Origin: Sedimentisphaerales bacterium
Lineage (GTDB): Bacteria > Planctomycetota > Phycisphaerae > Sedimentisphaerales > Anaerobacaceae
NCBI GenBank assembly: GCA_040772485.1
Contig: JAXGYC010000015.1
Span: forward strand, 26,090 to 90,089
DNA: 64,000 nt
Direction of reading: 5' to 3'
Positions 2-13,958 of the stretch are shown in pieces. Numbering within the stretch: the first letter of the stretch is position 1; each line of letters opens with the position of its first letter. Under the pieces are notes generated by a model. The model ran no database searches, was not told where the DNA came from, and saw only the letters and a list, made by a program, of their open reading frames with translations. The position numbers were made by a program, and so were the translations under genes.

Positions 2-442
2 ATGGGTTGGTTTGACGACAAAGACACTATGCAGAAGAAGTCCGCGTTGCGAAATGCTGTGGCCGTGATGCTGGCCGACGGCAAGGTGGAGCCGAACGAA
101 GTGGCCACACTGGGCTTCATCTGCAAACGGCTGGGACTGGACCCCAGCGTATTGAATGAGATCGTGGCCAATCCGGGCCAGATCGAGTTCGTCGTCCCTC
201 AGGACCCCACCGAGAAGGTCCGGCAGTTGGCCGACGTGGTGTTCATGATGATGGCCGACGGAAACATCAATCAGAAGGAACTGGATTGCTGCCGGGCGGT
301 GGCGCTGGGTCTCGGATTCCATGCCTCCACGGTCGTGGACGTGATTCTGGGCATTGCCGAAGCAATCAAGAACGGCGTGAACCGCGACCAGACCGTCCGC
401 ATGGCCGAGAACATCCTCGGCAAGAGCCCCTCTCTGGTCTGA
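2..442 (+). CDS. TerB-like (tellurite resistance/DjlA N-terminal fold) protein
   Basis: 146 aa with two A(V/M)MxADG motifs (AVMLADGKVEPNE; MMMADGNINQKE) typical of TerB family. The start lies at the window edge, so upstream context is not visible. Confidence 0.75.
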   Translation: MGWFDDKDTMQKKSALRNAVAVMLADGKVEPNEVATLGFICKRLGLDPSVLNEIVANPGQIEFVVPQDPTEKVRQLADVVFMMMADGNINQKELDCCRAVALGLGFHASTVVDVILGIAEAIKNGVNRDQTVRMAENILGKSPSLV

Positions 443-567
443 GGCTGACGGCGGCGAGAACACGCAATGAAGACGACGGATCTCGGGTTTCGCCACGGGT
501 ATGTGCCCGGGCGGAACCCGCGGTGCGTCCGATGTCACTCTCGGGCCGGCAGGAAAACAGAGGGCCA

Positions 568-1677
568 ATGTCATTACTTCAACCGGGACAGATCATTCGG
601 GACACCTATGAGGTGGAGCGCTACCTGGCGGAGGGCGCGTTTGCGGAGGTCTATCGCGTCAAGCACAGGTTCCTTGGCCGCCAGGCGATGAAGGTGTTCA
701 AACGCACCGGCATGACGCGCGCCGAACTCGATGAGATGATGGCCGAAGCGGTCCTGCTGTCCCGGATCGCCCACCCTAACATCGTGAAGGTATTCGATGC
801 GAACACGGTCGTGACGGAGCGGGGCGAGTGCGGCTACTTCACGATGGAGAACGTTCCCGGTGGCAGTCTGGACAAGTTCTGGCGGTCGCACGGGGCGCAA
901 CTGGTTCCGGTCGAAACCACCGTCGAGATTCTCAAGCAGGTCTGTCGCGGGCTGAGTCTGGCGCACAGCAAGAACCCGCCCATCATTCACCGTGACATCA
1001 AGCCGCAGAACATTCTCATCGGGTACGAGGCCGACGGCCTGCGGGCTCGCATCAGCGACTTCGGTCTGGCCCGGCAGGTCAACCGCCTGACGCTCCTGGC
1101 AACGGCCGCCGGCACGCTGGCGTTCAAACCGCCCGAGGTGTTCACCCAGGCCAAGAGCGACTCCGTGGCCGGCGACATCTGGGCGCTGGGCGTGATGACG
1201 TACATGCTGCTGACCGACAAGATTCCCTTCGAGGTCGACGAACACCTCGGATGGGGCAACGGCCAGGCGCTGCAAACGCCCCCGCCGGCGCCGAGTCTGT
1301 ACAACGTGGAGGCGAACGCCGGCCTGGATCGGATCGTGTTGAAATGCCTTTCGCCCAAGCCGGCCGACCGTTACGCCAGCGCCGCGGAGTTGCTCCAAGC
1401 GCTCGACGCATGGAAACCGGGGGCTTGCGGCCCCGAGCCGTCCGCGTCCTCATCGACGAGCGTATCGCGCTTCTCCAAAAATGCCCTCGGCCCTCTGTCG
1501 GCTGCCGACGAGGAGCAGGCCGAAGCGCTCGTCCGCCGGGCGCTGCGAATCGCCACGGAGCAGGGCAATCTGAACGAGGCGGCGGACATCATGGAGGACG
1601 CGTTCAACAAATGGCCCTCACTGAGAGACAAGTACGCCACGAAGGTCACTCTGTGGCGTCGCGGAATTCAGATGTAG
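568..1677 (+). CDS. Hanks-type Ser/Thr protein kinase with short C-terminal helical tail
   Basis: Start reassigned to ATG 568 (MSLLQPGQ), in frame with track ORF 286..1677. Motifs LAEGAFAEVY, AMK, HRDIKPQN, DFGLA, GTLAFKPPE, DIWALG. No TM segment. Confidence 0.95.
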   Translation: MSLLQPGQIIRDTYEVERYLAEGAFAEVYRVKHRFLGRQAMKVFKRTGMTRAELDEMMAEAVLLSRIAHPNIVKVFDANTVVTERGECGYFTMENVPGGSLDKFWRSHGAQLVPVETTVEILKQVCRGLSLAHSKNPPIIHRDIKPQNILIGYEADGLRARISDFGLARQVNRLTLLATAAGTLAFKPPEVFTQAKSDSVAGDIWALGVMTYMLLTDKIPFEVDEHLGWGNGQALQTPPPAPSLYNVEANAGLDRIVLKCLSPKPADRYASAAELLQALDAWKPGACGPEPSASSSTSVSRFSKNALGPLSAADEEQAEALVRRALRIATEQGNLNEAADIMEDAFNKWPSLRDKYATKVTLWRRGIQM

Positions 1678-1723
1678 ACGAACGCCAAGAGAGGAAAGCC
1701 CTCCACTGAGGAGAAGTCGGGGT

Positions 1724-3349
1724 ATGCTGACCGGGGAATGCCATACGTTGCTGGATATCTGCGGGCCGGACATCTACAGCCGCAACGCCTTTCGATTGCT
1801 CGCAGCGGACGTCGACGCCACCGGACGAAAGATCAAGCGGAACGAGGCGGAACTCCAGTCCGCTCTCGAGGTGGGCGACCTGGCGGAGGAATACGGTGAG
1901 TTTCTCCGGCCCGATCCCCTGCCGAGCCGCGAGGAACTCCTTCAGGCCGGCCGGGTATTGGCAGACGCCAGGCAGCGATTCGTGCACGAGTTTTTCTGGT
2001 TCTGGCCGCTCCAATGGGGCCAAAGCCATGCCGACGAGGCGCTCAAGTGTGTGCAGGCCAACCAGGTGAGCGAAGCGCAGAGGCAATGGGAGGACCTTGC
2101 CGGCGGCGACGGCGAAGCCTCCTGGGCCGCCCGGCACAACCTGGCGATCCTGGGGCACTGGAAGGCGCTGGATCAGGAGCGAGAGATTCTGACGTCGATC
2201 AACCTTGGTGGGTTGCCAGAACAGACCCGCCGGCAGTTCGATTCCCACTGGGACTTCGCCTTTAGGTACTGGGAATCGCTCTGCGCCAACGAGGAATTCT
2301 GGTCGCTTCTGGCCGACCGGATTGGCGCGCTGAACGATCCGCGTCTGACCGTGGGATTTCTGCGCGACTTCTCCCAGTGGCTGCCCATCGCGTTTGACAA
2401 CATCAACGCCGACCTGGCGGTGGCTTATTGCGATCGCCAGATGTACGACCGGGCGCGAGACCACATCCGGATCATGAAGGCGACGAACGCGGGGCACGAC
2501 GACGTCGACGCCAGTCTGCGGCGCGTGACCAGACCGCTCAACGGCCGCATCGACCATGCCATCGAAACGGCCACCTACCAACTGCACAACAACAAGACCG
2601 CCGGAAAGCAGCGCTGCATCGAGCTGTTCAACACGGTCGGTCACATCCTGGATGTTCTCGAGGTGCTGCTCGGCAGCGAATCGCAGGAGTTCACCGAGAC
2701 GTGCGACCGCGTGGCCGAGAGCATGCTCCAATGCCAGGTCGTCTACGGCAACGAGACCCAGGACTGGGCCAGTTCGCTCGAACTGCTGGACACCACGCTG
2801 CAGATCGCCCGCGGAAGCCGGATGCGCGCCCGCCTCGAAGAGAACCTCGAAATCGTGCGCCAGAACCGACAGGGGGACCTCTGCTGGTTCTGCGAAAGCT
2901 GCCCGAAGGAGAACGAACACGCCGTCCCGGTGCCGTTGAGGAAACCCGTCACGTGGGCGGACGTCAAGAGCAATCCGGCGTTGTACCGCGACGCCATCCT
3001 TGTGACCGCCGGACGGTTGCACTTGCAGTTCTCCGGCGGCCTGACCGGTCCGATGGACCCCATGGGAATGATCGTCGTCCCGCAGTTCAGGAGAGCAATC
3101 GACAGCGGAGATATTCACGCCATCGTGCGCGCCGTTGATCCGTACATCCAGGACTCCGTCGAGGTGACGAGCCAGCCGCTGACGATGCTGGTTCCCCGAT
3201 GCCATACGTGTGCGGCCGTCCATGCGGGATCCGCCGCCGGCGGACGCGGAGAACGAGTGAAGACAGGCAACACCAGACCGCTGGACCACCTCCAGTTGTG
3301 GCCCGACGTCGTCAAGGCCAAACAGGACGGATTTCACGTTGTCGCGTAG
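1724..3349 (+). CDS. Hsp70-associated helical protein with degenerate J-domain-like N-terminus and Cys-rich (Zn-binding?) C-terminal region
   Basis: GAGGAG RBS. N-terminus YSRNAFRLLAADVDATGRKIKR...RPDP...EELLQAGRVLADARQR resembles J-domain helices; TPR-like middle; CWFCESC and PRCHTCAAVH motifs. Confidence 0.6.
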   Translation: MLTGECHTLLDICGPDIYSRNAFRLLAADVDATGRKIKRNEAELQSALEVGDLAEEYGEFLRPDPLPSREELLQAGRVLADARQRFVHEFFWFWPLQWGQSHADEALKCVQANQVSEAQRQWEDLAGGDGEASWAARHNLAILGHWKALDQEREILTSINLGGLPEQTRRQFDSHWDFAFRYWESLCANEEFWSLLADRIGALNDPRLTVGFLRDFSQWLPIAFDNINADLAVAYCDRQMYDRARDHIRIMKATNAGHDDVDASLRRVTRPLNGRIDHAIETATYQLHNNKTAGKQRCIELFNTVGHILDVLEVLLGSESQEFTETCDRVAESMLQCQVVYGNETQDWASSLELLDTTLQIARGSRMRARLEENLEIVRQNRQGDLCWFCESCPKENEHAVPVPLRKPVTWADVKSNPALYRDAILVTAGRLHLQFSGGLTGPMDPMGMIVVPQFRRAIDSGDIHAIVRAVDPYIQDSVEVTSQPLTMLVPRCHTCAAVHAGSAAGGRGERVKTGNTRPLDHLQLWPDVVKAKQDGFHVVA

Positions 3350-3373
3350 GGGCGAATGATTATTCGCCCCTAC
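3346..3373. repeat. GTAG-type REP palindrome, family A
   Basis: gtaggggcgaatgattattcgcccctac; its TAG is the stop codon of 1724..3349. Confidence 0.9.
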
Positions 3374-3391
3374 TTCGAGGAACAGACGGCT

Positions 3392-3889: not shown

Positions 3890-3903
3890 TGATTCGCCCG
3901 TAC
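3876..3903. repeat. REP family A copy
   Basis: gtaggggcgaatgatgattcgcccgtac; contains the GrpE-like stop codon. Confidence 0.9.
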
Positions 3904-3967
3904 TCCTTTCGGCCTCAGAGGACCGAAGGGACCAAAAGGACCTGAGGCGAATGAGAAAGGGATAGAC

Positions 3968-6439
3968 ATGGGCAAACGAAGCACGATCGATTTCGGCATC
4001 GATCTGGGCACGACCAACAGCGCGATTGCCGTTCTTAACGGGGTCACGCCCGAGATCATCAAGAACAACGATGATCTGGATGTCACGTCTTCGGCGGTGC
4101 ACATCAGCAAACACGGCCAACTGCGTGTGGGCAAACGCGCCCGGCAGCAACTGCTCAGCGAAGCGGCGGAAGGCGACGTATACATCGAGTTCAAGCGGCG
4201 GATGGGAACGGACTACGTCTACGCGTTCCGCAGCGCCGCCGTGAACAAGAGCCCCGAGGAACTGTCGGCCGAGGTCCTCAAGAGTCTGTGCGGCGATGCA
4301 CAGCAGCGACTGGGCGAGGAGGTTGCGGCCGCCGTGATCACGGTTCCGGCCGCCTTCGACCAGAAGCAGTGCGCCGCGACCAAGCGGGCGGCCGAAATGG
4401 TCGGCCTGCGACAGTGTCCGCTCGTACAGGAGCCGGTGGCCGCGGCGCTGGCCTACGGTTTCCAGCTCCGGGCCGAGCGGGAATACTGGCTCGTATACGA
4501 CTTCGGCGGCGGCACCTTCGACGCGGCCCTGATGAAAGCCGACGACGGCATGATCGACGTGGTCAACCACGGCGGCGACAATCATCTCGGCGGCGCCGAC
4601 ATCGACTGGGCTATCGTCGAGAAGATCGTCCTGCCGCGAGTGGCCAAGGAATTCAACTTCCCCGAACTGCACCGCAAGAACTCCCGCTGGCGCACGGCGA
4701 TCGCCCAGATCAAACACGCGGTGGAAGTGGCGAAGATCGAGCTGTCGCGAAGCGAGAAGACCTTCCTGGCCGATTGCCTGGTCAAGGACGCAGGCGGCCA
4801 GACGGTGGAGATCGACTTCCCGTTGACGCGCAGCGAAATCACCGCGGTCGCCACGCCGATCATCATGGAATCGGTGGAGATCTGCAAGCGCGTGCTCAAA
4901 GAGAAGGACCTGACGCCCGCCATGGTCAACAAGGTCATCCTGGTCGGCGGGCCGACGCTGGCGCCCTATTTCCGGGACATCCTTTCCGAGCAGCTCGGCG
5001 TCCCGCTCGATCATTCCATCGACCCGCTGACCGTTGTCGCCCGGGGCGCGGCGGTCTTCGCAGGCACGCAGCGGCTGGTCTGCGAATCCGCCACAGGCGG
5101 ACAGGGCAGCTACCGGCTCGAACTGAAATACAACGCCATCGGCCCGGACGAGGATTTCCGCGTCCGTGGCAAGGTCGCCGCCGAGGGCGAGGACCTCACG
5201 GGGTTCACGATCCGCTTCTCGAACCGGGCGACGGGCTGGGACAGCGGGAAGATCCCTCTGAAGTCCGAGGGGACCTTCAAGGCCGATCTGCTGGCGGAGG
5301 CGGGCACGAGGAACACGTTCGCCATCCAACTGGCGGACGCGAAGGGTACGATCCAGAAAACGGTTCCCGAGGAGTTGGTGTACACCGTCGGTACGGCTCC
5401 TTCTCAACAGACGGTGATCAATTCGCTGGGCGTGGCGCTTCGCGACAACGAGTTCGACATGCTGCTGGAGAAGGGCACGCCGCTTCCGGCCAAACAGATG
5501 CGGGTGTACCGCACGGCCAGGGCACTGCACAAGGAAGACTCGGGAGAGATGCTGAGCATTCCCATCGTCGAAGGCGAAAATCCCAAGGCCGACCGCAACC
5601 GCCTCCAGGCCGTGTTGGCAGTGAAGGGCAACCAGATTCGCCGCGACATTCCTGCGCAATCCGAGGTCGAGGTGACGTTGATGATGGATGAGGATCGCAT
5701 CATCCGCGCGCGAGCCTACATCACCATGCTGGACGAGGAATTCGAGGTCGTCATCACCCCGGAAACCCGGACGCCCGACGCGGCGCGTCTCAAGCGCGAG
5801 CTGAACGAAGAGAAGCAACGGCTGCGTGAGCTGGCCAACAAGGGCGGGCCTTCCACCGCCGTGGCCCAGCAACAGGCGAAGATCGCCAACCTCGAAGAGC
5901 TGGTCGAGACGGCGCAGGGCGACCCCGACGCCGCCAACAAGGCCGAGACGCGGCTTCTCGAACTCAAGGCCAGCCTCGACCGGCTGGAAAACGAGTGCAA
6001 CTGGCCCAAGATGGTGCAGGACGCCCGCGCGCAATTGGACGAACTCGACAACGTCGTGTCGCAATTCGGCCGTGACGATCCGGAATTCGCCCGGCGCGCT
6101 GGCGAGCTGCGAACCGAAGTGGAGCAGCTCATCGAAGAGCACCGCGACGACCGTCTGCCCAAGAAGCTCCAGCAGGTGCAGGCGTTGCGCAACGAGGTGC
6201 TGATGTCGAGGGATGAATTCTGGGTCTCGGTGTTCGAGAAGGCCAAGAGCAACAGGACCCAGATGAAGGACCAGACCATGGCGACCCGGCTGATCAGCCA
6301 GGGTGACGCGTGCCTCCAGCGCGGAGACATTCAGCAACTGCGTCAGGTCGTCGCCCAACTGATGGGTCTTCTGCCGGCGAACGTCCAGGACGAAGTCCGC
6401 GACGGATACGAAAGTGGCGTAATCGAGATCGCGCGTTGA
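3968..6439 (+). CDS. Hsp70 family protein (atypical 823 aa DnaK paralogue with long helical C-terminus)
   Basis: GIDLGTTNS, EPVAAALAYG, VYDFGGGTFD, GDNHLGGADID, ILVGG signatures. Too long and divergent to be housekeeping DnaK. Confidence 0.95.
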   Translation: MGKRSTIDFGIDLGTTNSAIAVLNGVTPEIIKNNDDLDVTSSAVHISKHGQLRVGKRARQQLLSEAAEGDVYIEFKRRMGTDYVYAFRSAAVNKSPEELSAEVLKSLCGDAQQRLGEEVAAAVITVPAAFDQKQCAATKRAAEMVGLRQCPLVQEPVAAALAYGFQLRAEREYWLVYDFGGGTFDAALMKADDGMIDVVNHGGDNHLGGADIDWAIVEKIVLPRVAKEFNFPELHRKNSRWRTAIAQIKHAVEVAKIELSRSEKTFLADCLVKDAGGQTVEIDFPLTRSEITAVATPIIMESVEICKRVLKEKDLTPAMVNKVILVGGPTLAPYFRDILSEQLGVPLDHSIDPLTVVARGAAVFAGTQRLVCESATGGQGSYRLELKYNAIGPDEDFRVRGKVAAEGEDLTGFTIRFSNRATGWDSGKIPLKSEGTFKADLLAEAGTRNTFAIQLADAKGTIQKTVPEELVYTVGTAPSQQTVINSLGVALRDNEFDMLLEKGTPLPAKQMRVYRTARALHKEDSGEMLSIPIVEGENPKADRNRLQAVLAVKGNQIRRDIPAQSEVEVTLMMDEDRIIRARAYITMLDEEFEVVITPETRTPDAARLKRELNEEKQRLRELANKGGPSTAVAQQQAKIANLEELVETAQGDPDAANKAETRLLELKASLDRLENECNWPKMVQDARAQLDELDNVVSQFGRDDPEFARRAGELRTEVEQLIEEHRDDRLPKKLQQVQALRNEVLMSRDEFWVSVFEKAKSNRTQMKDQTMATRLISQGDACLQRGDIQQLRQVVAQLMGLLPANVQDEVRDGYESGVIEIAR

Positions 6440-6448
6440 CGGGAGCAT

Positions 6449-7306
6449 ATGTCGGTGACAATGGTCTATGCCGGCCTGACGGACGTCGGGCGAATGCGAG
6501 AGACGAACGAGGATGCGTTCGGCATTGATCGTCAGCTCGGGCTGATGGTCGTCGCAGACGGTCTGGGCGGTCATCCGGCCGGCGAGGTAGCATCGACGTT
6601 CGTCGTCGAGGCGCTGCCGCGCCAACTGGCGATGGGACGTGCCGCCGGCCTGGAGGATGCTCGGGGCCCCGCGCAACTCCTGAGCCAGTCGTTGCTGATT
6701 GTCGCCGAACAGCTTCGTGACATGGGACGTGCGAGGCCGGAACAGGAAGGCATGGGCGCGACAGTCGTGGCCGCCCTGGTCAGCGATGCGGCGCTTCTGG
6801 TCGCCCATCTCGGCGACAGCCGGGCCTACCGGCTTCGCGATAGCCAACTGGAACTGCTGACACGAGACCACAACCTCGGCAATGCCCTGCGCGACGAGGG
6901 CGTGGTCCACGATGGGGCCGAGGACATCCCGGAATACCACGTGCTGCGCCGGTTCGTGGGGATGGACCAGCCGCTGCCGCCGGACGTCGGGACGTTCGAC
7001 CTCCGGCAGCGCGACCGCTATCTGCTGTGCACCGACGGCCTGACGAACATGCTCAGCGAAGCGGAGATCTCCGAGATCCTGGGCGCCGATGCGCCCTGCG
7101 AGGAGCTTTGTCGCCAGATGGTGTCGCGGGCGAACGAGGCCGGCGGATACGACAACATCACCGCGATCGTGGCCCAGGTGCAGTCCGTGCGCGCCGACCA
7201 GGCATCGCCCGGCAAGGTGGCACAGACGATCGCTTCGTTGGACCCGGAGGAATCACTCAGGGAAGGGCGAATGAGTATTCGCCCCTACTGCACGGGGCAT
7301 CATTGA
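6449..7306 (+). CDS. PP2C/PPM-family Ser/Thr protein phosphatase
   Basis: TDVGRMRETNED, VVADGLGGH, MGAT, HLGDSRAY, LLCTDGLT, GGYDNIT motifs. Confidence 0.95.
   Translation: MSVTMVYAGLTDVGRMRETNEDAFGIDRQLGLMVVADGLGGHPAGEVASTFVVEALPRQLAMGRAAGLEDARGPAQLLSQSLLIVAEQLRDMGRARPEQEGMGATVVAALVSDAALLVAHLGDSRAYRLRDSQLELLTRDHNLGNALRDEGVVHDGAEDIPEYHVLRRFVGMDQPLPPDVGTFDLRQRDRYLLCTDGLTNMLSEAEISEILGADAPCEELCRQMVSRANEAGGYDNITAIVAQVQSVRADQASPGKVAQTIASLDPEESLREGRMSIRPYCTGHH
7262..7288. repeat. REP family A copy (in PP2C 3' end)
   Basis: gaagggcgaatgagtattcgcccctac, translated as GRMSIRPY. Confidence 0.8.
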
Positions 7307-7320
7307 AAGGATAAGCGGAT

Positions 7321-8430
7321 ATGGAACCCGAAGCCGGTATCATGCTGGTTTGGTCGCTGGCCGCGATGGAAGCCCAGGCCCTGGGATGGTCGCAGATCGA
7401 GCCGGCCCATCTGTTGTGTGCGATCCTGAAGTTCGCAGAACTGGATGGGACCGATCTGGAACGCCTCGGTCAGACCAATGAGAATCTCGGCAACCTGGCG
7501 CAGGAACACCAGGACTTGAAGGCGCATCTCGACGACCCGTGGGGAATCACGGTGCCCGAGGTTTCCACCCGACTGCGGCGGGCCCTGCGACGACCGGGCG
7601 AAGCTTGCCCTGAGCGCAACCGAAGGGGCCCGCGAGCGCAGTCCGCCACAGGCGGACCGGGAGGGATGGTCCATCGCAGTGACGCCGCACGCGAGGCGTT
7701 TCGGGCCGCGCAGGGCGCGGCCGAACAGGCGGGCCGCCAGCGCCTGGGAGTCGTCGATCTGCTGGGCGCGCTTATGAACGGGTCCGATGAATGGATTCGC
7801 CGCGGACTGGAGCAGCAGGGAATCCCGACGACATCGCAACTGGCCCAGCGCAATGAGGCGATGGAGCAGTGGGCCGACGTGCTGGTCCCGCTGGCACCGT
7901 CCGGCCGGGTCGACGAGGCCGAGAGAAAGCGGATTCTTGCCGATCCTGCGGTGCGCGTGCTGGCCGACGCGTTGGCCAATCCCGGCGCGCCGGGACGGCC
8001 GTGCCTGCTGATTCATGGACCCGACCGCACGGGACATGACGTTCTGATCGATCTGCTCGATCGACGCGGTGAGCGGAAGCCTCCGAAGGTCATCCAGGTG
8101 AACAGCCGGGCGTTGCTGGAACGTCTTTCCCGAGATGGGAACGTCGCCGCCGTCGGGTTTCTGGATTTGCTCTGCGACGAGTCAAATCAGAAGACCATCT
8201 GGTTCTTCGACTCGTTACATCGGTACCTGAGCGAGGAGCTGGCCCCAACCGCCTTCCGGCTGCGTTTTGTCCAGTGGCTCAAGCAGACGAACAGCCGATT
8301 TCTTTTCGCCGTCTCGCAGAGCCAGTACGACAAACTGGCCCAACGAAATTTTGACTGGAAGAACACCTTCCAGCAGATCTGGATTCACAGCCCTTCGGCC
8401 CGCCCTCGCCAGGTGGGTATGGAGTTGTGA
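7321..8430 (+). CDS. Clp N-terminal domain protein with degenerate AAA+ (ClpA/B D1-like) module
   Basis: EAQALGWSQIEPAHLLCAIL and AEQAGRQRLGVVDLLGALM Clp-N repeats. Walker A position reads LLIHGPDRTGHD; Walker B position reads IWFFDSLH. Confidence 0.7.
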   Translation: MEPEAGIMLVWSLAAMEAQALGWSQIEPAHLLCAILKFAELDGTDLERLGQTNENLGNLAQEHQDLKAHLDDPWGITVPEVSTRLRRALRRPGEACPERNRRGPRAQSATGGPGGMVHRSDAAREAFRAAQGAAEQAGRQRLGVVDLLGALMNGSDEWIRRGLEQQGIPTTSQLAQRNEAMEQWADVLVPLAPSGRVDEAERKRILADPAVRVLADALANPGAPGRPCLLIHGPDRTGHDVLIDLLDRRGERKPPKVIQVNSRALLERLSRDGNVAAVGFLDLLCDESNQKTIWFFDSLHRYLSEELAPTAFRLRFVQWLKQTNSRFLFAVSQSQYDKLAQRNFDWKNTFQQIWIHSPSARPRQVGMEL

Positions 8431-8447: not shown

Positions 8448-8550
8448 GTAAAGATCAAACAGCAAAATGGAAAGATGAGGAACTCATCCGCCGAAGGCGG
8501 ATACCGCCATTTTGATTCTTCCCTTTTGATCTTTGCTTTTTGCCTTTTGT
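8448..8550. repeat. AAAGATCAAA / TTTGATCTTTG inverted tract
   Basis: Same family as 32346-32451; purine-rich arm then pyrimidine-rich arm; may also act as a terminator/pause. Confidence 0.65.
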
Positions 8551-8573
8551 TGTAGTTTGCAGTGAGGTGATCC

Positions 8574-11500
8574 GTGTTCACAGAGAAAGCACAAGCGATC
8601 GTTTCCATGGCCAAAGATCGGGCCTACACGCTCGGACGGAATTGCATAGACGTCGAGAGCCTGCTGGCGGCCATCGCCTCCGACCGCCAGGCGTGTGTGC
8701 GGCTGGCGGAGTGCCTGACCGCCGGCAACGTCGCCGATCTGCGGCGGCGCTGCCCGCAGTTCGAGTCGCCGGGGTCGTGTCCGGGCACGATGCCGCCCGA
8801 TGAAGCGGTGCGTTTGCTCCTCGACAAGGCTTGCGAACTGGCGGGCGGGGAGGGAGTCCCCGACCGGACGCATCCGGGACTGGTGGGGTTGCCTCACCTG
8901 ATCTGTGCGGCCGCGATGTCGGTCGAGGTGGCAAGTCTGCTCGGCGATCCGATCGCGCCCATCGGCTCCAAACAGGCGATGAGTCTGCTGGCCCGCTGGG
9001 TGATGGACAGCGATACGAGCCTGTCGCTGGGCGAGCTGACCGGCCAGCTTCGCGGGCTGCGGGCGGCCCTTCTGGCGAGAGTATTCGGACAGGATCACGC
9101 GGTCCATGCCCTGGTCGAAGGGCTCTACAATGCGCAGGTGACCGCGGGCGCCGACCACGATCGCCGGCAGCCAATCGCCACGTTCGTCTTTGCCGGACCT
9201 CCCGGGGTCGGCAAGACCCACATGGCCGAACTGTGCGCCGCGCATCTGAAGCGTCCCTTCAAGCGATTCGACATGACCGCCTATAGCGACCACCAGGCCG
9301 ACAACCAGCTCGTCGGTTTTGCGCCGTCCTTTCAGGCCGCCAAGCCCGGCCTCCTGACGGGATTCGTCAAGCAGAATCCCAACGCCATCCTGCTGTTCGA
9401 CGAGATCGAGAAGGCGCATCTGAATACGATGCAACTGTTCTATCAGATCCTCGACGCCGGCCGACTGCACGACAAATTCGACGACGAGGACGTGTGCTTC
9501 CGCGACACGATCATCATCTTCACGACGAACGCCGGGCGGAGCCTCTACGAGAATCCCAACGCCAGCGGGATCTCCGCGGTCAACGCCGACTATCACAAGC
9601 GCACGATCCTCAGCGCGCTGGCGAACGAGAAAAATCCCACGACCGGCCAGCCGGCCTTTCCGCCGGCCATTTGCAGCCGGCTCGGGCAGGGCTATCCGCT
9701 GATGTTCAATCATTTGGGCATCAACGAGCTGGAACGCATCGCCGAGACGGAAATGACGCACACCGAGGCCCTGCTCGAACGGCAGTACTTCAAGACGTTT
9801 CGACACGATCCGATCCTGCCGATCCTGCTCGTGCTGCGATGCGGCGCGAGCATCGACGCCCGGCAGTTGCGCAGCGAGGTGGAGCGATTCGTCAAATCGG
9901 AACTGTTCAAGTTCTGTAGCCTCTACGAGTCGCAGCGCGTCGAAAAAGTGCTCGAGCAGATCGACGAGGTGCTCTTCACTGTCGATCCGGCCGAGATTCG
10001 GAATCACCCTGCGACGCAGAAACTCCTGTTCAATCCGGACAAATCGACTGTGCTCCTGGTGGCGGATGAGGCCTTCGCCTCGCGTTGTCGGGCGGCCCAT
10101 CCGGAGTTCGAGTGGATCGCGGCCGCGACGAAGGAAGAAGTGGTCAGTCAACTGGCTGCCCATGAAGTCAACATGATCCTGCTGGACTTGTGGGTCTCGA
10201 CGGGACACGATCGGGCCGGCGTAGGGGCGAATGATTACTCGCCCCTACCGAGCGCGGGCCGGATCGATCATCTCCCCTTGTCGGCCAGGGCCTTCGACAA
10301 CGGCCGGACGATCCTCCAGACGATTCGCAAGCGTTTCTCCGACGTCCCCGTCTACCTGCTGTCGTTCCAGACGCAACAGGCCGACGGCGCGACAAAGACC
10401 GTTTGCGTGGATGATCGGTACGACGCCACTGAGCGCCCCCACGACACGAAAAGGCCCCGGCCGATCGACGAAGAGCTGTTTCTCGCCTGCGTCCGAGCCG
10501 GCGGCGCCCGAGGGATGATCGCCACCGAGTACGACCGATCCTCAAAAACCGACCCCGGCGCGCCGGGATTCGCGGCGGCCCTTCAGGGGATTCTGCTTCG
10601 CCTGTTCCGCGAGAAGGTGGCCGCCGATCTCGCGCGGCAGCGCCAGTGCCTGGAGTTCGACACGGTCGCCCGCCTGAACGAGTCGGTTCGTCACCTGGGG
10701 ATCTCAACTCGCGGATTCCGGCTTCAGCGTGTCATCGAGGCCGAAGACGTGGTCGGCCTGGTCAGCGACGTGGAACGTCCTTCCACCCGCTTCGACGAAG
10801 TCTTCGGCGCGACCGCCGCGAAGAAATCGCTGGGCTTCGTGGTCGACTGGCTGAAGAACCGCAAGCGTTACGCGGGACTGGGGCTGCGCCCGCCCAAGGG
10901 CATTCTCCTGAGCGGCCCGCCCGGAACCGGCAAGACCATGCTCGCCCGGGCGGTCGCCGGAGAGTCGAATTGTGCGTTCATGGAGGAATCCGGCGGCAAC
11001 TTCATCACCAAGTGGCAAGGCAGCGGTCCGGAAAACGTGCGGAAGCTGTTCCAGCGGGCACGCAAGTACGCGCCCGCGATCGTATTCATCGACGAGATCG
11101 ACGCGGTGGGCAAGACGCGCAGCGGCGCAACCACCAGCGAGTCCCGCGAGACAACGCTCAACACCCTCCTGACGGAAATGGACGGGTTCGGGGCGACGGC
11201 GGACGCCCCGGTGATCGTGCTGGCGGCGACGAACCTGGCCGAGAAGCTCGACCCGGCGCTGAAGCGGCGTTTCGACCGCGAGATCAGGGTCGACGAGCCG
11301 GACCGGTCCGCTCGCCTGGCGTACCTGCAACAGGCGATCGGAAAGCTCTCGAAATCCGAGGTCGGCGCCGAGACTCTCGAAGCGATCGCCAACCAGAGCG
11401 TATACATGACCATCGCCGACCTGGCCCGCGTCGTCCAGGAAGCCGGCGTGATGGCGGCGCTGGCCGGATCGACCATCACCGACAGCATCCTGCTCGAGGC

Positions 11501-12146
11501 GTTCGAGAAGCAGCGCATGGGCGAAGCCCTGCCCTGCACGAACCAGGCAAAGCTGCTCCGCATCGCCCGCCACGAGGCGGGACACACGCTGGTGGCGTGG
11601 AAGAGCGGCACGCCGGTCCATCAGGTCACGATCGTCGGCCGCGGCGGGGCCGGCGGTTACATGGAACGCAAACACGACGACGACCGCGACCTGCAAACCA
11701 AGGAAGATCTGCTTCGTGATATTCGCATCTCCATGGCGGGTCGCGCGGCGGAACTGGTCTGCTATGGCCCGGACGCGGGTCTGAGCATCGGCGTCGGCGC
11801 GCCCCGAGCCATCGGCGGTGGAGGCGGCGACTTGCCCAACGCATCGCAGAAGGCGATCCAGATGGTTCGCGTCTACGGCATGGACGAGGAGATCGGACAA
11901 TTGGCGCTCGATGAGCTCTTCGTCGAAAACAGCCAGCGCCCGCTCGCCGAACAGACCCTTATGCTGGCCGAGAGGATCGTGTCGGAACAACTGGACGTCG
12001 CCAGGAAGCTCATCGAGACCCATCGCGACGAATTCGATCGCCTGGTCGATGCGCTGGTCAAACACAACCGGCTGGATGAGGCCCAACTGAACGAGCTGCT
12101 CGGCGAACAGCTCCCGCTCGTCTCTGAGGTCTCTTCAGTCCCTTAG
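8574..12146 (+). CDS. Soluble multidomain AAA+ protease: Clp-N + ClpA/B D2-type AAA + receiver-like domain + FtsH-type AAA + peptidase M41
   Basis: GTG start after GAGGTG. VFGQDHAV, GPPGVGKT, LLFDEIEKAH, LDAGRL, IIIFTTNAG (Clp D2); VLLVAD...ILLDL...PVYLLS (REC-like); GPPGTGKTMLARAVAGE, IVFIDEIDAVG, LLTEMDGF, VLAATN...LDPALKRRFDR (FtsH AAA); HEAGH Zn motif. No TM helices. Confidence 0.9.
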   Translation: MFTEKAQAIVSMAKDRAYTLGRNCIDVESLLAAIASDRQACVRLAECLTAGNVADLRRRCPQFESPGSCPGTMPPDEAVRLLLDKACELAGGEGVPDRTHPGLVGLPHLICAAAMSVEVASLLGDPIAPIGSKQAMSLLARWVMDSDTSLSLGELTGQLRGLRAALLARVFGQDHAVHALVEGLYNAQVTAGADHDRRQPIATFVFAGPPGVGKTHMAELCAAHLKRPFKRFDMTAYSDHQADNQLVGFAPSFQAAKPGLLTGFVKQNPNAILLFDEIEKAHLNTMQLFYQILDAGRLHDKFDDEDVCFRDTIIIFTTNAGRSLYENPNASGISAVNADYHKRTILSALANEKNPTTGQPAFPPAICSRLGQGYPLMFNHLGINELERIAETEMTHTEALLERQYFKTFRHDPILPILLVLRCGASIDARQLRSEVERFVKSELFKFCSLYESQRVEKVLEQIDEVLFTVDPAEIRNHPATQKLLFNPDKSTVLLVADEAFASRCRAAHPEFEWIAAATKEEVVSQLAAHEVNMILLDLWVSTGHDRAGVGANDYSPLPSAGRIDHLPLSARAFDNGRTILQTIRKRFSDVPVYLLSFQTQQADGATKTVCVDDRYDATERPHDTKRPRPIDEELFLACVRAGGARGMIATEYDRSSKTDPGAPGFAAALQGILLRLFREKVAADLARQRQCLEFDTVARLNESVRHLGISTRGFRLQRVIEAEDVVGLVSDVERPSTRFDEVFGATAAKKSLGFVVDWLKNRKRYAGLGLRPPKGILLSGPPGTGKTMLARAVAGESNCAFMEESGGNFITKWQGSGPENVRKLFQRARKYAPAIVFIDEIDAVGKTRSGATTSESRETTLNTLLTEMDGFGATADAPVIVLAATNLAEKLDPALKRRFDREIRVDEPDRSARLAYLQQAIGKLSKSEVGAETLEAIANQSVYMTIADLARVVQEAGVMAALAGSTITDSILLEAFEKQRMGEALPCTNQAKLLRIARHEAGHTLVAWKSGTPVHQVTIVGRGGAGGYMERKHDDDRDLQTKEDLLRDIRISMAGRAAELVCYGPDAGLSIGVGAPRAIGGGGGDLPNASQKAIQMVRVYGMDEEIGQLALDELFVENSQRPLAEQTLMLAERIVSEQLDVARKLIETHRDEFDRLVDALVKHNRLDEAQLNELLGEQLPLVSEVSSVP
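10221..10248. repeat. REP family A copy (in frame in AAA protease)
   Basis: gtaggggcgaatgattactcgcccctac = VGANDYSPL. Confidence 0.9.
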
Positions 12147-12165: not shown

Positions 12166-12343
12166 CGGGTGGCAGCCTCAAACGCGCCAGCGTTTGGGGA
12201 TGGTGGAACGCGAAGGAAGTCCCGCGACGCCCGTACGGCCCACGCAGGGGCGAATGATTATTCGCCCGTACTCCGCCATCCCTAAGGCTTCGCTGCGTTG
12301 CGCTCCGTTCGGCTTTGCTCAGGACAAGCTTTGAGGCTGCCAC
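12166..12343. repeat. Composite inverted-repeat element (GGGTGGCAGCCTCAA arms) enclosing other repeat units
   Basis: Arms cgggtggcagcctcaaa / tttgaggctgccac; inner gggatgg/ccatccc; holds a REP-A copy and a ttcggctttgctcaggacaagctt unit. Confidence 0.8.
12244..12271. repeat. REP family A copy
   Basis: gcaggggcgaatgattattcgcccgtac inside the composite element 12166..12343. Confidence 0.85.
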
Positions 12344-12362
12344 GCGGCGGATCCGGCAATTC

Positions 12363-12391
12363 TTGTGCTCTGCGCCGACTCATGCTATCTT
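12363..12391 (+). promoter_or_regulatory. Possible sigma70 promoter for the lipoprotein/DUF748 pair
   Basis: TTGTGC-N17-TATCTT with extended -10 TG. Confidence 0.4.
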
Positions 12392-12455
12392 ATGGAAAAG
12401 ACATGGCGGGCGCCCGCCGTGGCAACGACCATGGGGATGCAGATCTGAGACAAAC

Positions 12456-13958
12456 ATGGAACGACAGTGGAGTTGCCGGCACAGGAATTCAACTGGTCCG
12501 TATCGAGTTGCCCTCGTCTTGATGAGTTGGATGACAGCCTTGTCTGCGGGTTGCCGTCCCGGCCTCAAGACGGCTCACCCTCTGCCCGGCTCCGAGTTGC
12601 AGTATGGCGTCGGCTACGCCACAGGCTTATCGCCGGCCGATCCCGGCGCGCCGGGACGCATCGAAGATTCCCTTGGTATCAACGTGACCATTGCGGCCAT
12701 CACCCAGTGGCATGAGAACACCCTGAGACCCGTAGCCTCACAGACGCAAATGATCACGGTGCTCCCGGCGAGCACGGCGGTGGCGGCTGTGCCGCGTCTG
12801 ATGAGAAGAGCCAGCGTGGGCGTGATTCAAAGCAGAGCACAGTTCTGGAGCCAGATCGCCGTCAAAGGCTCCGAAGCGCCGCTGTTCGTGGAAAAGCTGC
12901 ACGGCATTCTGCCCGATGGGATCGGCGCCGTCATTCGCATCGCGGAGAAGCCGACGTCGGATTCCGGCGCCATCCGTACGCTCGAGATCCACGTGCGCCG
13001 CAGATCCGCCACGGGCGGACCGGAACCGAACGTGCCGGCGATCCGCCTGCGGCGGATTTCGCTGGAGGTTTCGCTTGTGGCGACGGGACATCTGAAGCAG
13101 ACGGCCGGCCCCGAGGCCGACGATTCGGAGAAGCCCCAAGGGCCGTCCGGGCCCGGCGGAACGGGCATGCTGACGACCGAGACGATCGCGCTGGCGCCAC
13201 AGGACATGCAGGAGCAGGATCGCCTGGCGTTCGTGCTGCCGTCTCCATTCGACGTGGACGGACTCGTGGGATTCGCGGCGCTGATCGAAGTGCAGCCGCC
13301 CCCGCCGGAAGGAACGGCCGAAGCAGCCACCTATGCAGCGAGCTGGAAGCAGTGTCGAGACAAACTGCTGGCAGCGGCGGGAACGGGCGACGACCGACCG
13401 CCGTTCGACGCTGGCAGACGAGGCATCGAAGACGCCCTGCGACTGCTCGCGTCGCCCACACACAGGCAGCGGGCACTGGTGTACCTGGCACAAGAGACCG
13501 GAGCGCCGCTGTTCGCCGACGTGACGCTGTCGGCGACAGACGCCGTCGTGGACCGTCTCGCGAACGCGGTCACGAACGAGTGGTCGGGTTCCACCTTTGA
13601 AACAGCCACCCTGGGATGGCGGCTGGAGCGGACCGCGTATCAACTGCTCATCAAGCTGCTGAGCGCCGACCAGACGTCGCCCGACCTGGAGGCGGTCGTG
13701 ATCCGCCACGCCGGCGAGGTGGGTCGTCATCCTTCCGTTCTGCAGGAGATGGTCTCGGAGGCGACGAGTATCGAGGACCTGAGGCAGCGGTTGCTCCTGG
13801 AGAACTTCATCTATCTGGAGGACATTTCGCCAGCCGCCCGGACACGGGCCTTTGAATGGCTGGCGGCCAGAGACCAGGCGCCTCAGGGCTATGATCCCCT
13901 CGCCTCACTCAAGGAAAGGCGCAACGTACTGAACCGGATTCTCCAGGAACAACCGTAG
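12456..13958 (+). CDS. Putative lipoprotein, function unknown
   Basis: In frame with track ORF 12315..13958. ATG 12456 gives a hydrophobic signal ending in the lipobox-like LSAG-C; 18 nt upstream of the DUF748-like gene. Confidence 0.6.
   Translation: MERQWSCRHRNSTGPYRVALVLMSWMTALSAGCRPGLKTAHPLPGSELQYGVGYATGLSPADPGAPGRIEDSLGINVTIAAITQWHENTLRPVASQTQMITVLPASTAVAAVPRLMRRASVGVIQSRAQFWSQIAVKGSEAPLFVEKLHGILPDGIGAVIRIAEKPTSDSGAIRTLEIHVRRRSATGGPEPNVPAIRLRRISLEVSLVATGHLKQTAGPEADDSEKPQGPSGPGGTGMLTTETIALAPQDMQEQDRLAFVLPSPFDVDGLVGFAALIEVQPPPPEGTAEAATYAASWKQCRDKLLAAAGTGDDRPPFDAGRRGIEDALRLLASPTHRQRALVYLAQETGAPLFADVTLSATDAVVDRLANAVTNEWSGSTFETATLGWRLERTAYQLLIKLLSADQTSPDLEAVVIRHAGEVGRHPSVLQEMVSEATSIEDLRQRLLLENFIYLEDISPAARTRAFEWLAARDQAPQGYDPLASLKERRNVLNRILQEQP

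What the first reader, a model, noticed from the sequence alone, without database searches (positions are those of the whole stretch)
8574..12146. Soluble FtsH-type metalloprotease fused to a ClpA/B D2 motor and a receiver-like domain
Seen: two intact but different AAA+ modules (GPPGVGKT/DEIEKAH, Clp D2 type; GPPGTGKT/DEID with arginine finger LKRRFDR, FtsH type), an HEAGH zinc motif and a later Asp (GGGDL) at the position of the third FtsH ligand. Between them lies a CheY-like segment (VLLVAD...ILLD...PVYLLS). There are no TM helices. Established: FtsH is normally membrane-anchored with one AAA ring, and ClpA/B motors carry no protease. Inference: a self-contained double-ring unfoldase-protease, possibly gated by Asp phosphorylation.
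Basis: partly seen in the sequence, partly recalled or inferred. Interest (0 to 1): 0.78.

Follow-up and report, generated by a model that had tools for sequence, protein, structure and literature searches.

The report
Soluble two-motor FtsH-like protease system
This gene encodes a membrane-free, FtsH-type zinc protease with an extra Clp-type unfolding motor and a degenerate receiver domain. It belongs to a rare, undescribed family that travels with an ATPase-dead Clp-like partner and Ser/Thr kinase/phosphatase genes, so control by Asp phosphorylation looks unlikely.

Summary
ORF 8574-12146 (+, 1190 aa) carries every quoted motif at the stated places. It has no TM segment. Its domain order is Clp_N-like N-domain, Clp D2-type AAA+, receiver-fold domain, classical AAA, then M41 zinc protease. 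At least 108 full-length homologues from many phyla share this layout, so it is a real gene family and not a mis-assembly. All ATPase, pore-loop and zinc-site residues are essentially invariant, which supports an active two-motor protease.

- **Receiver domain:** it has the (βα)5 fold, the acceptor Asp (D538, 109/109) and Ser597. It lacks the conserved Lys (Thr instead), and most relatives lack the acidic pair. No histidine kinase lies nearby.
- **Likely regulators:** the conserved neighbours are Hanks Ser/Thr kinases (often FHA- or WD40-fused), a PP2C phosphatase and sometimes an Hsp70-like ATPase. Some relatives carry the kinase fused to the protease.
- **Not self-contained:** the gene directly upstream (7321-8430) encodes a Clp N-domain plus an ATPase-dead D1-type module. 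One relative has this partner fused to the protease.

I found no description of this architecture in the literature. I rate it a new variant of a known kind, of moderate-to-high interest.

The parts
8574..12146 (+). Whole gene: 1190-aa Clp_N-like / Clp D2-type AAA+ / receiver-like / classical AAA / M41 protease
   Evidence: ORF. Domains. At least 108 full-length homologues at 45-97% identity.
8574..9023 (+). N-domain (aa 1-150), Clp_N-like
   Evidence: All 31 PDB sequence hits are ClpC/ClpC1 N-domains (best E=3e-4, aa 2-41). About 17 of 120 homologues carry a precomputed PF02861 hit. F2 and T3 are nearly invariant, and E28 is the majority residue.
9039..9953 (+). Clp/Hsp100 D2-type AAA+ module (aa 156-460)
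   Evidence: AAA_2 E=8e-32. ClpA/ClpB/ClpC/ClpE D2 are the top PDB hits. Residue mapping to E. coli ClpB: K611->K214, Y653->F253 (Tyr in 90 of 109), E678->E277, N719->N319, R756->R369. These are invariant in 109 sequences. The 'DAR' at 428-430 sits where the sensor-2 'GAR' lies (inferred). No ClpP-docking [ILVM]G[FL] loop in 0 of 109 members.
9195..9218 (+). Walker A of the D2-type module (GPPGVGKT, aa 208-215)
   Evidence: K214 in 109 of 109.
10026..10643 (+). Receiver-fold domain (aa ~485-690) with two insertions and a long α5 helix
   Evidence: AF2 model with mean pLDDT 76 and β1α1-β5α5 order. Foldseek top 50 are all receiver domains, TM(target) about 0.7. Response_reg hits are sub-threshold in 25 of 26 members (best E=6.6e-5), and this copy scores 14.7 bits against a cut-off of 30.2.
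10185..10187 (+). Codon of D538, at the phospho-acceptor position of receivers
   Evidence: Asp in 109 of 109. It aligns with the acceptor Asp of AdeR/PmrA receivers.
10791..11528 (+). Classical-clade AAA module (aa 740-985), FtsH-like
   Evidence: PF00004 E=1.3e-50. BLASTP to E. coli FtsH gives 33% identity over aa 738-1179, E=1e-63. K787, D840/E841, N887 and R898/R899 are invariant, and the pore-loop residue is W814 in 105 of 109.
10914..10937 (+). Walker A of the FtsH-like module (GPPGTGKT, aa 781-788)
11541..12098 (+). Peptidase M41 domain (aa 990-1175)
   Evidence: PF01434 95.9 bits. It aligns with the FtsH protease domains 2DI4, 8VW9 and 2CE7.
11571..11585 (+). HEAGH zinc motif (aa 1000-1004)
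   Evidence: H, E and H each in 108 of 109. It aligns to HEAGH of A. aeolicus and E. coli FtsH.
11829..11831 (+). Codon of D1086, the third zinc ligand position
   Evidence: Asp in 109 of 109. It aligns to the Asp of 'GAENDL' in 2DI4 and 'GASNDI' in E. coli FtsH.
7321..8430 (+). Partner gene: 369-aa Clp N-domain plus ATPase-dead D1-type AAA large domain
   Evidence: AF2 pLDDT 85.6. Top Foldseek hits are the Hsp104 1-360 fragment and ClpC/ClpB N+D1. The Walker A Lys position is H/R/Q and never K, and Walker B reads 'DS'. It lies directly upstream of the protease in at least 31 of 49 loci. It is fused to the protease in P0163 (hhalign E=1e-18).
6449..7306 (+). PP2C Ser/Thr phosphatase
   Evidence: PP2C_2 E=6e-16. 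Stp1_PP2C_phos 211 bits, just under the 230-bit cut-off. A PP2C gene is present in 14 of 49 related loci.
3968..6439 (+). Hsp70-like ATPase (823 aa); the nucleotide-binding domain is clear, the C-terminal 450 aa are atypical
   Evidence: HSP70 E=1e-78 over aa 9-366. Present in 11 of 49 related loci; L054 also has GrpE.
286..1677 (+). Hanks-type Ser/Thr protein kinase
   Evidence: Pkinase E=2e-42. Kinases occur in 24 of 49 loci. A kinase is fused N-terminally to the protease in P0206, P0242, P0221 and P0209.
1724..3349 (+). 541-aa protein of unknown family, in the same operon-like run
   Evidence: No Pfam or PADLOC hit. It co-occurs with the kinase and the Hsp70-like gene in L005-L008 and L023.

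Best explanation
The gene encodes a cytosolic, ATP-dependent zinc metalloprotease of the FtsH lineage. The membrane anchor of FtsH is replaced by a Clp_N-like substrate/adaptor-binding domain, a complete Clp/Hsp100 D2-type unfolding motor and a divergent receiver-fold domain.

**Shown**
- The domain order.
- Conservation of every residue needed for ATP hydrolysis in both motors.
- Both pore-loop aromatics and the H-E-x-x-H...D zinc site.
- The absence of TM segments and of a ClpP-docking loop.

**Inferred mechanism**
- The protein assembles through its AAA-M41 part into an FtsH-like hexamer.
- Substrates are captured by the N-domains, pulled through the D2-type ring, handed to the FtsH-type ring and cut in the M41 chamber.
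- The protein does not act alone. The adjacent gene encodes an ATPase-dead Clp N-domain/D1 module that most likely docks on the complex as an adaptor, a regulator, or a non-catalytic third tier that recreates a D1-D2 stack.
- The receiver-like domain sits immediately before the FtsH-type AAA module on a long α5 helix, as in NtrC1/NtrX-type REC-AAA+ proteins. It probably controls ring assembly or coupling of the two motors.
- It lacks the canonical Lys, and in most relatives the acidic pair, so it is probably not a His-Asp phosphorelay acceptor.
- The input signal is more likely Ser/Thr phosphorylation by the co-encoded Hanks kinases (with WD40, TPR or FHA modules), reversed by the co-encoded PP2C.

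The physiological role is unknown. Regulated destruction of specific proteins in response to a kinase-sensed signal is the best guess.
For: Architecture and motifs. Family-wide invariance of K214/D276/E277/N319/R369/R430, K787/D840/E841/N887/R898/R899, H1000/E1001/H1004/D1086 and the pore residues Y/F253 and W814. Residue mapping to E. coli ClpB is, to E. coli FtsH and to A. aeolicus FtsH.

No TM segment. No ClpP loop. Receiver fold; the NtrX and NtrC1 REC-AAA+ structures are among the best hits and cover 214 columns. Degenerate receiver pocket.

Partner: the structure matches Clp N+D1, the Walker motifs are dead, it is adjacent in at least 31 of 49 loci, and a natural fusion exists in P0163.

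Kinase, PP2C and FHA linkage. Kinase-protease fusions. No histidine kinase appears in 7 annotated contexts.
Against: Nothing here is biochemical. Proteolysis, hexamer formation, stacking of the two rings and binding of the partner are all inferred.

Kinase, PP2C and Hsp70-like genes are frequent but not universal (24, 14 and 11 of 49 loci; many contigs are short). Some loci, such as L053, show only the partner plus the protease.

The invariant D538, D565, D632 and S597 show that the receiver pocket is under strong selection for something. This particular copy does have D498/E499 at the acidic-pair position, so Asp phosphorylation is not excluded.

The roughly 230-aa insertion between the two motors might prevent coaxial stacking.
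Confidence: 0.6

Rival explanations
1. One reading: a self-contained double-ring unfoldase-protease whose activity is switched by phosphorylation of the receiver Asp (D538) through a His-Asp phosphorelay or acetyl phosphate.
For: The receiver fold is present. D538 is Asp in 109 of 109 and S597 is Ser in 108 of 109. This copy has D498/E499 at the acidic-pair position. The invariant D565 and D632 on the active-site face could substitute as metal ligands (inference).
Against: The Lys position is Thr or Ser in 103 of 109 and never Lys. The acidic pair is N/D/G/S/A/E and is not conserved. The Pfam Response_reg score is far below its threshold. No histidine kinase or HPt gene appears in 7 annotated neighbourhoods. 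A conserved partner gene argues against 'self-contained'.
Confidence: 0.12
2. The locus is a mobile conflict or anti-phage (abortive-infection-type) system. Sensor kinases with WD40 or TPR domains detect infection or damage and unleash the protease on host or phage proteins.
For: The distribution is rare but very patchy: 48 of about 185,000 species genomes, across at least 10 phyla, and only 176 clusters among 1.84 billion representatives. In L055 the five-gene module sits between a phage-type integrase and an rve transposase. In L053 it lies next to a serine recombinase. L054 has HigB, vWA-FHA and a DEAD/MZB helicase nearby. The kinase resembles the kinases of PD-T4-6/mad6, and the PP2C resembles PDC-M21C.
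Against: The PADLOC hits are generic domain matches, and no PADLOC model fits the protease or partner specifically. In the window the flanks are ordinary genes (oxidoreductases, DUF748) and synteny is stable among close relatives. No phage data exist.
Confidence: 0.25
3. It is a stress proteostasis machine: a disaggregase-protease that works with the Hsp70-like protein, like DnaK-ClpB, but degrades what it extracts.
For: The parts are Clp/Hsp100-derived and an Hsp70-like gene sits in the same operon. L054 has Hsp70 plus GrpE nearby.
Against: An Hsp70-like gene is present in only 11 of 49 loci. No M-domain, the Hsp70-docking coiled coil of ClpB, is seen in either protein: the partner ends after the D1 large domain. 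A housekeeping role fits poorly with the rarity of the family.
Confidence: 0.15
4. One of the catalytic parts is only structural, so the protein is a pseudo-protease or single-motor scaffold like plant FtsHi or Ycf2.
For: The FtsH equivalog scores are below their cut-offs (349.7 against 600). There is a Gly-rich insertion beside the third zinc ligand.
Against: All catalytic residues of both motors and of the zinc site are invariant across 109 sequences that share only about 45-55% identity. That is the signature of retained activity.
Confidence: 0.05

Closest known systems
FtsH (M41 AAA protease; E. coli FtsH, T. maritima 2CE7, A. aeolicus 2DI4)
   Same: The whole cytoplasmic part is collinear: aa 738-1179 against E. 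coli 149-596, 33% identity. It has one classical AAA module, an aromatic pore loop, two SRH arginines, HEAGH and the third-ligand Asp.
   Different: It has no N-terminal TM helices or periplasmic domain. About 735 extra N-terminal residues carry a second motor and a receiver fold. The SRH lacks the 'PG' (KR-RFDR against RPGRFDR). The pore aromatic is Trp rather than Phe. The score is below the NCBIfam FtsH cut-off.
Clp/Hsp100 class I unfoldases (ClpA, ClpB, ClpC, ClpE, Hsp104)
   Same: The N-domain is of the Clp_N type. The first motor is a full D2-type (HCLR-clade) module, and all key residues map to ClpB K611/Y653/E678/N719/R756. The upstream partner looks like the N-domain plus D1.
   Different: D1 and D2 are on separate polypeptides and D1 is ATPase-dead. 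There is no M-domain and no ClpP-docking loop. The protease is fused in cis and is a metalloprotease, not ClpP. Within the protease the motor order, HCLR then classical, is the reverse of Clp proteins.
NtrC1/NtrX/DctD-type REC-AAA+ regulators
   Same: A receiver fold followed by a long α5/linker helix lies directly before an AAA+ module. NtrX (5M7O) and NtrC1 (4L4U) are among the best structural matches and cover 214 columns. This suggests receiver control of ring assembly.
   Different: The AAA+ module here is of the classical clade and not a σ54 activator. The receiver lacks the Lys and, family-wide, the acidic pair. No cognate kinase of the His type is present.
Lon protease
   Same: It is a soluble, single-polypeptide AAA+ protease with an N-terminal substrate-binding domain.
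   Different: Lon has one motor and a Ser-Lys protease. The only similarity is a weak hit of Lon's AAA module to the D2-type module.
FtsH-containing vWA-MoxR ternary conflict systems (Kaur et al. 2020, PMC7159879)
   Same: These are FtsH-type AAA proteins with two AAA copies in rare, multi-gene systems of complex bacteria including planctomycetes.
   Different: That component has two FtsH-type AAA domains, the first of which is inactive, and it is linked to MoxR and vWA genes. Here the first motor is an active Clp D2-type module, and no MoxR was seen in the 7 annotated contexts (a vWA domain appears only once, fused to FHA, in L054). The linked genes are kinases, PP2C and a Clp N-D1 partner.

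Membership tests
FtsH (TIGR01241 / M41 AAA proteases) | Two N-terminal TM helices flanking a periplasmic domain | tested here: not met
   The maximum 19-residue hydropathy is 1.59, against 2.32 in E. coli FtsH. The NCBIfam FtsH profile matches only from profile position 155.
FtsH (TIGR01241 / M41 AAA proteases) | Classical AAA module with Walker A/B, sensor-1, SRH arginines and an aromatic pore loop | tested here: met
   There are two variations: Trp in place of Phe, and an SRH without 'PG'.
FtsH (TIGR01241 / M41 AAA proteases) | M41 domain with HEXXH plus a downstream Asp zinc ligand | tested here: met
   PF01434 95.9 bits. The residues align to 2DI4 and E. coli FtsH and are invariant in the family.
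FtsH (TIGR01241 / M41 AAA proteases) | Score above the curated equivalog cut-off | tested here: not met
   349.7 bits against a cut-off of 600, and 209.5 against 1008 for PRK10733.
FtsH (TIGR01241 / M41 AAA proteases) | ATP- and Zn-dependent proteolysis as a hexamer | not testable with these tools
   This needs biochemistry or cryo-EM.
Clp/Hsp100 class I (ClpA/B/C) | Clp_N double-repeat N-domain | tested here: inconclusive
   Repeat 1 hits only ClpC N-domains (E=3e-4), and some homologues have PF02861. There is no Pfam hit in this copy, and repeat 2 is divergent.
Clp/Hsp100 class I (ClpA/B/C) | Two motors, D1 (classical) then D2 (HCLR), in one chain | tested here: not met
   Only a D2-type module is present in this chain. 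A D1-like, ATPase-dead module is in the separate partner protein.
Clp/Hsp100 class I (ClpA/B/C) | D2 catalytic set (Walker A Lys, Walker B Glu, sensor-1 Asn, Arg finger, pore Tyr) | tested here: met
   Mapping to ClpB K611/E678/N719/R756/Y653. Invariant, except for Y/F at 253. The sensor-2 equivalence (DAR 428-430) is inferred only.
Clp/Hsp100 class I (ClpA/B/C) | ClpP-docking IGF/IGL loop (ClpA/C/E) or M-domain (ClpB) | tested here: not met
   No [ILVM]G[FL] between sensor-1 and the Arg finger in 0 of 109 members. No coiled-coil M-domain is seen in either protein.
Response-regulator receiver (PF00072) | (βα)5 CheY-like fold | tested here: met
   AF2 secondary-structure order. The Foldseek top 50 are all receivers.
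Response-regulator receiver (PF00072) | Phospho-acceptor Asp at the end of β3 | tested here: met
   D538 is Asp in 109 of 109 and aligns to the acceptor Asp of AdeR.
Response-regulator receiver (PF00072) | Acidic pair after β1 (Mg2+ site) | tested here: not met
   Family positions 498/499 read N32/D26/G16/S10/A8/E7 and E22/D16/P15/S14. This copy happens to have D498-E499.
Response-regulator receiver (PF00072) | Ser/Thr at the end of β4 | tested here: met
   S597 is Ser in 108 of 109.
Response-regulator receiver (PF00072) | Conserved Lys after β5 | tested here: not met
   Position 651 is T93/S10 and has no Lys. The position was assigned from the model's β5.
Response-regulator receiver (PF00072) | Pfam gathering score; cognate His kinase | tested here: not met
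   14.7 bits against 30.2. No HK or HPt gene in 7 annotated contexts.

The most novel reading that the evidence does not exclude
The partner, the protease and the kinase/PP2C/FHA genes form a mobile, signal-triggered 'executioner' machine. It would be a three-tier AAA+ stack (dead D1 ring from the partner, active D2 ring, FtsH-type ring) over a zinc-protease chamber. A pseudo-receiver domain holds it off, and Ser/Thr phosphorylation releases it when WD40 or TPR sensor kinases detect phage infection or another insult. This would be a new class of kinase-gated proteolytic immune or cell-fate effector in bacteria.
Probability: 0.2. Interest if true: 0.85.

Novelty: new variant of a known kind. 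Interest (0 to 1): 0.62.

Why it matters
AAA+ proteases are textbook machines with a small number of known designs: ClpXP/ClpAP, Lon, FtsH, HslUV and the proteasome.

This family would add a design that has not been described. It is a soluble FtsH-type protease with a second motor from a different AAA+ clade in the same chain. A receiver-fold module is wedged between the motors, and a split-off, ATPase-dead Clp D1 partner accompanies it.

It offers a natural experiment on three questions:
- how two unlike rings are coupled;
- what pseudo-receiver domains do;
- how eukaryote-like Ser/Thr kinase signalling can control regulated proteolysis in bacteria.

If the system proves to be a defence or cell-fate module, it would link kinase sensing directly to a processive protease effector.

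Tried and rejected
- **Pfam on the full protein:** this did not show Response_reg or Clp_N, because AAA families crowd the table. I isolated the middle segment instead.
- **BLASTP of partner against protease:** nothing significant. hhalign of the two family profiles gave only a weak Clp_N-repeat match (E=0.014). I therefore do not claim the partner is a recent paralogue of the protease's N-half.
- **Single-sequence PDB search with aa 300-465:** it found nothing useful. The profile search listed ClpB1/ClpC matches reaching the small domain but did not print that part. hmmalign to E. coli ClpB confirmed R756->R369 but failed to place sensor-2 R815. The DAR/GAR equivalence stays an inference.
- **First mapping to E. 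coli FtsH:** I used mafft --keeplength and it was mis-numbered. I discarded it and replaced it with BLASTP.
- **Partner in the kinase-fused long forms:** I looked for a partner-like region in P0209, P0206 and P0211 and found none.
- **PADLOC:** only generic AAA, kinase and PP2C matches came back. This is not evidence of a known defence system.
- **FtsH ternary system of Kaur et al. 2020:** I considered it and rejected it as the same thing.
- **CoCoNuT Hsp70-like components:** unrelated context.
- **Literature:** six full-text searches found no description of this architecture.
- **RNA genes:** no tRNA or Rfam feature in the window.

Full report
**1. The observation**

The window holds an ORF at 8574-12146 on the + strand (GTG start, 1190 aa).

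| Motif | Residue |
|---|---|
| GPPGVGKT | 208 |
| DEIEKAH | 276 |
| VLLVAD | 493 |
| ILLD | 535 |
| PVYLLS | 592 |
| GPPGTGKT | 781 |
| DEID | 840 |
| LKRRFDR | 896 |
| HEAGH | 1000 |
| GGGDL | 1083 |

Pfam finds AAA_2 at 199-331 (E=8e-32), AAA at 777-907 (E=1.3e-50) and Peptidase_M41 at 995-1175 (E=3.6e-27). NCBIfam places aa 734-1172 on the FtsH model from profile position 155 to its end (349.7 bits, below the 600-bit equivalog cut-off). It places aa 146-444 on the D2 half of ClpA.

The most hydrophobic 19-residue window scores 1.59 and lies inside the N-domain. E. coli FtsH reaches 2.32. So there is no membrane anchor.

The gene is not an assembly artefact. At least 108 full-length proteins of 1120-1235 aa, at 45-97% identity and from independent assemblies, have the same layout. 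The family consensus starts MFTEKAQ, like this ORF.

**2. The two motors and the protease look active**

I aligned 109 family sequences. The following residues are invariant or nearly so.

| Part | Residues |
|---|---|
| Motor 1 (D2-type) | K214, D276, E277, N319, R369, R430; pore-loop position 253 is Tyr (90) or Phe (19) |
| Motor 2 (FtsH-type) | K787, D840, E841, N887, R898, R899; W814 (105 of 109) |
| Protease | H1000, E1001, H1004 (108 of 109 each); D1086 (109 of 109) |

- **Mapping to ClpB.** Aligning E. coli ClpB to a family profile maps K611, Y653, E678, N719 and R756 onto K214, F253, E277, N319 and R369. These are the Walker A, pore-loop Tyr, Walker B, sensor-1 and Arg-finger residues of ClpB D2, as I recall from the ClpB literature. 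Only the residue identities at those numbers were checked. The invariant 'DAR' at 428-430 lies where the sensor-2 'GAR' of ClpB lies, but that step is inferred, not aligned.
- **ClpP loop.** No member has a ClpP-docking [ILVM]G[FL] loop (0 of 109). This fits a motor that feeds a fused protease.
- **Mapping to FtsH.** BLASTP against E. coli FtsH aligns aa 738-1179 with residues 149-596 (33% identity, E=1e-63). It pairs the Walker motifs, W814 with the pore Phe, HEAGH with HEAGH, and D1086 with the Asp of 'GASNDI'. The same Asp pairing holds for the A. aeolicus protease-domain structure 2DI4.

The SRH reads ALKR--RFDR, with the 'PG' of FtsH/Cdc48 deleted. Both arginines are kept, but the motif is not the FtsH form.

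**3. The N-domain**

Residues 2-41 hit only ClpC/ClpC1 N-domains in the PDB (31 of 31 hits, best E=3e-4). About 17 of the 120 homologues carry a precomputed Clp_N hit. The second repeat is divergent, so I call the domain Clp_N-like.

**4. The middle domain**

- **Fold.** An alignment of aa 470-700 from 26 members gave an AF2 model with mean pLDDT 76. Its order is β1α1β2α2β3-insert-α3β4-insert-α4β5-long α5. The 50 best Foldseek matches in the PDB are all receiver domains, with TM normalised to target of about 0.7. The REC-AAA+ proteins NtrX and NtrC1 cover the most columns.
- **Sequence scores.** Response_reg is the top Pfam family for 25 of 26 members, always below threshold (this copy 14.7 bits against 30.2). 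A profile search of PDB sequences returns almost only receivers and pairs D538 with their acceptor Asp. So the fold claim stands.
- **Catalytic residues.** The canonical set does not stand. D538 and S597 are conserved, but the position after β5 is Thr or Ser and never Lys. The β1 acidic pair is variable, with Asn the commonest residue.
- **Other conserved residues.** W540, D565, D632 and the GGAR motif (643-646) are invariant or nearly so. The domain is therefore under selection for some other conserved function.
- **Rarity.** A profile of this domain found only 176 clusters (E<=1e-3) among 1.84 billion representatives. The full-length hits, about 1120-1220 aa, carry it at residues ~470-700 as here. 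The remainder are fragments or longer forms. It is a private, highly derived receiver.

**5. The surroundings change the picture**

In the window the protease is the last gene of a same-strand run:

| Gene | Coordinates |
|---|---|
| Ser/Thr kinase | 286-1677 |
| Unknown 541-aa protein | 1724-3349 |
| Hsp70-like ATPase | 3968-6439 |
| PP2C phosphatase | 6449-7306 |
| 369-aa partner | 7321-8430 |
| Protease | 8574-12146 |

I fetched 48 loci from species-representative genomes. All are MAGs, from the following groups:
- Planctomycetota
- Desulfobacterota
- Chloroflexota
- Verrucomicrobiota, including Lentisphaerae
- Acidobacteriota
- Gemmatimonadota
- Bacillota
- Myxococcota
- Hydrogenedentota
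- Vulcanimicrobiota
- Synergistia

I also used loci from contig look-ups. Across 49 loci the partner was detected in 31, nearly always directly upstream. Kinases appeared in 24, PP2C in 14 and Hsp70-like genes in 11. Many contigs are short, so these are lower bounds.

Seven Pfam-annotated contexts show a recurrent module: partner, protease, PP2C, FHA-kinase and WD40-kinase. None has a histidine kinase.

Natural fusions tie the parts together:
- P0206, P0242, P0221 and P0209 carry an N-terminal protein kinase on the same chain as the protease.
- P0163 carries a partner-like N-terminus (hhalign E=1e-18).
- Other long forms add further classical AAA modules.

**6. The partner**

Its AF2 model (pLDDT 85.6) matches the Hsp104 1-360 fragment and the N-domain plus D1 of ClpC, ClpB and ClpA. 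The Walker A Lys position is His, Arg or Gln and never Lys, and Walker B reads Asp-Ser. It is therefore an ATPase-dead Clp N-D1 module.

Together, the partner and the protease contain the pieces of a Clp/Hsp100 protein (N, D1, N, D2), followed by a receiver fold and an FtsH cytoplasmic region.

**7. Most likely mechanism**

*Shown:* the architecture, conservation of all catalytic residues, the lack of an anchor and of a ClpP loop, and the conserved linkage to the partner and to Ser/Thr signalling genes.

*Inferred:*
- A hexameric FtsH-like core.
- A D2-type ring that engages substrates bound by the Clp_N-like domains and passes them to the FtsH-type ring and the M41 chamber.
- A partner that acts as adaptor, regulator or inert top tier.
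- A receiver-like domain that, as in NtrC1-type proteins, controls assembly or coupling of the ring that follows it.
- Control by the Hanks kinases, PP2C and FHA proteins rather than by a phosphorelay.

Cross-talk of Ser/Thr kinases with receiver domains is known in other bacteria. I recall WalR and CovR as examples from memory; I did not check this here.

I put 0.6 on this overall picture. I put about 0.12 on Asp-phosphorylation gating, because D538 and a set of nearby acidic residues are invariant and this copy keeps D498/E499.

**8. What the system is for**

This is open. The rare and patchy distribution and the mobile-element flanks suggest an accessory, possibly conflict-related module. 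The flanks are an integrase and a transposase around the module in L055, a serine recombinase in L053, and HigB plus a DEAD/MZB helicase near L054. The sensor-type kinases point the same way.

Against this, PADLOC gives only generic domain hits. In the window the flanks are ordinary genes, with stable synteny among close relatives.

A proteostasis role with the Hsp70-like protein is possible. It fits the rarity of the family poorly, and the Hsp70-like gene is often absent.

**9. Novelty**

The proteins are in public databases under generic names such as 'AAA family ATPase' and 'ATP-dependent metalloprotease FtsH'. No curated NCBIfam model reaches its cut-off.

Six full-text searches found no description of this architecture or gene cluster. 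The nearest published system, the FtsH-containing vWA-MoxR ternary systems, has a different FtsH component and different partners.

I rate it a new variant of a known kind. All domains are known. The combination, the split dead-D1 partner and the kinase linkage are not. Interest is 0.62.

Noticed in passing
window 13976-19507 (+): A 1843-aa DUF748/AsmA/YhdP-like giant protein with one N-terminal hydrophobic segment lies downstream of the protease. It is conserved next to the protease only in the closest relatives (L004-L006), so it is probably not part of the system.
   Followed up: partly
window 12315-13958 (+): A 547-aa ORF lies directly after the protease. It has no Pfam, NCBIfam or PADLOC hit and is conserved only in L004-L006.
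   Followed up: partly
window 1646-6940 (-), 8484-10208 (-), 10704-12086 (-): Very long antisense ORFs (up to 1764 aa) overlap the Hsp70-like, PP2C and protease genes. They are most likely artefacts of the 64% G+C content and not genes.
   Followed up: no
window 11796-11822 (aa 1075-1083 of the protease): A nine-residue Gly-rich insertion (GVGAPRAIG) sits immediately before the third zinc ligand Asp. It is present only in the window's close relatives and is gapped in most family members.
   Followed up: no
P0015 (1485 aa), P0039 (1721 aa): Longer family members carry one or two additional classical AAA modules between the receiver-like domain and the M41 domain. These are three- and four-motor versions.
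   Followed up: partly
L055 1-19088; L053 5967-7589; L054 13630-13938: In other genomes the module sits between a phage-type integrase and an rve transposase (L055), next to a serine recombinase (L053), or beside a HigB toxin gene, a vWA-FHA gene and a DEAD/MZB helicase (L054). These are hints of mobility or island context.
   Followed up: partly
window 3968-6439 (+): The Hsp70-like protein has a clear nucleotide-binding domain (aa 9-366). Its remaining roughly 450 residues are not matched as a canonical Hsp70 substrate-binding domain and include long charged, probably helical stretches.
   Followed up: no
L017-L019, L021: In some relatives (Vulcanimicrobiota, Synergistia) the protease's own N-terminal domain resembles the window's partner N-domain more than the window protease's N-domain. 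This suggests domain exchange between the two genes.
   Followed up: no
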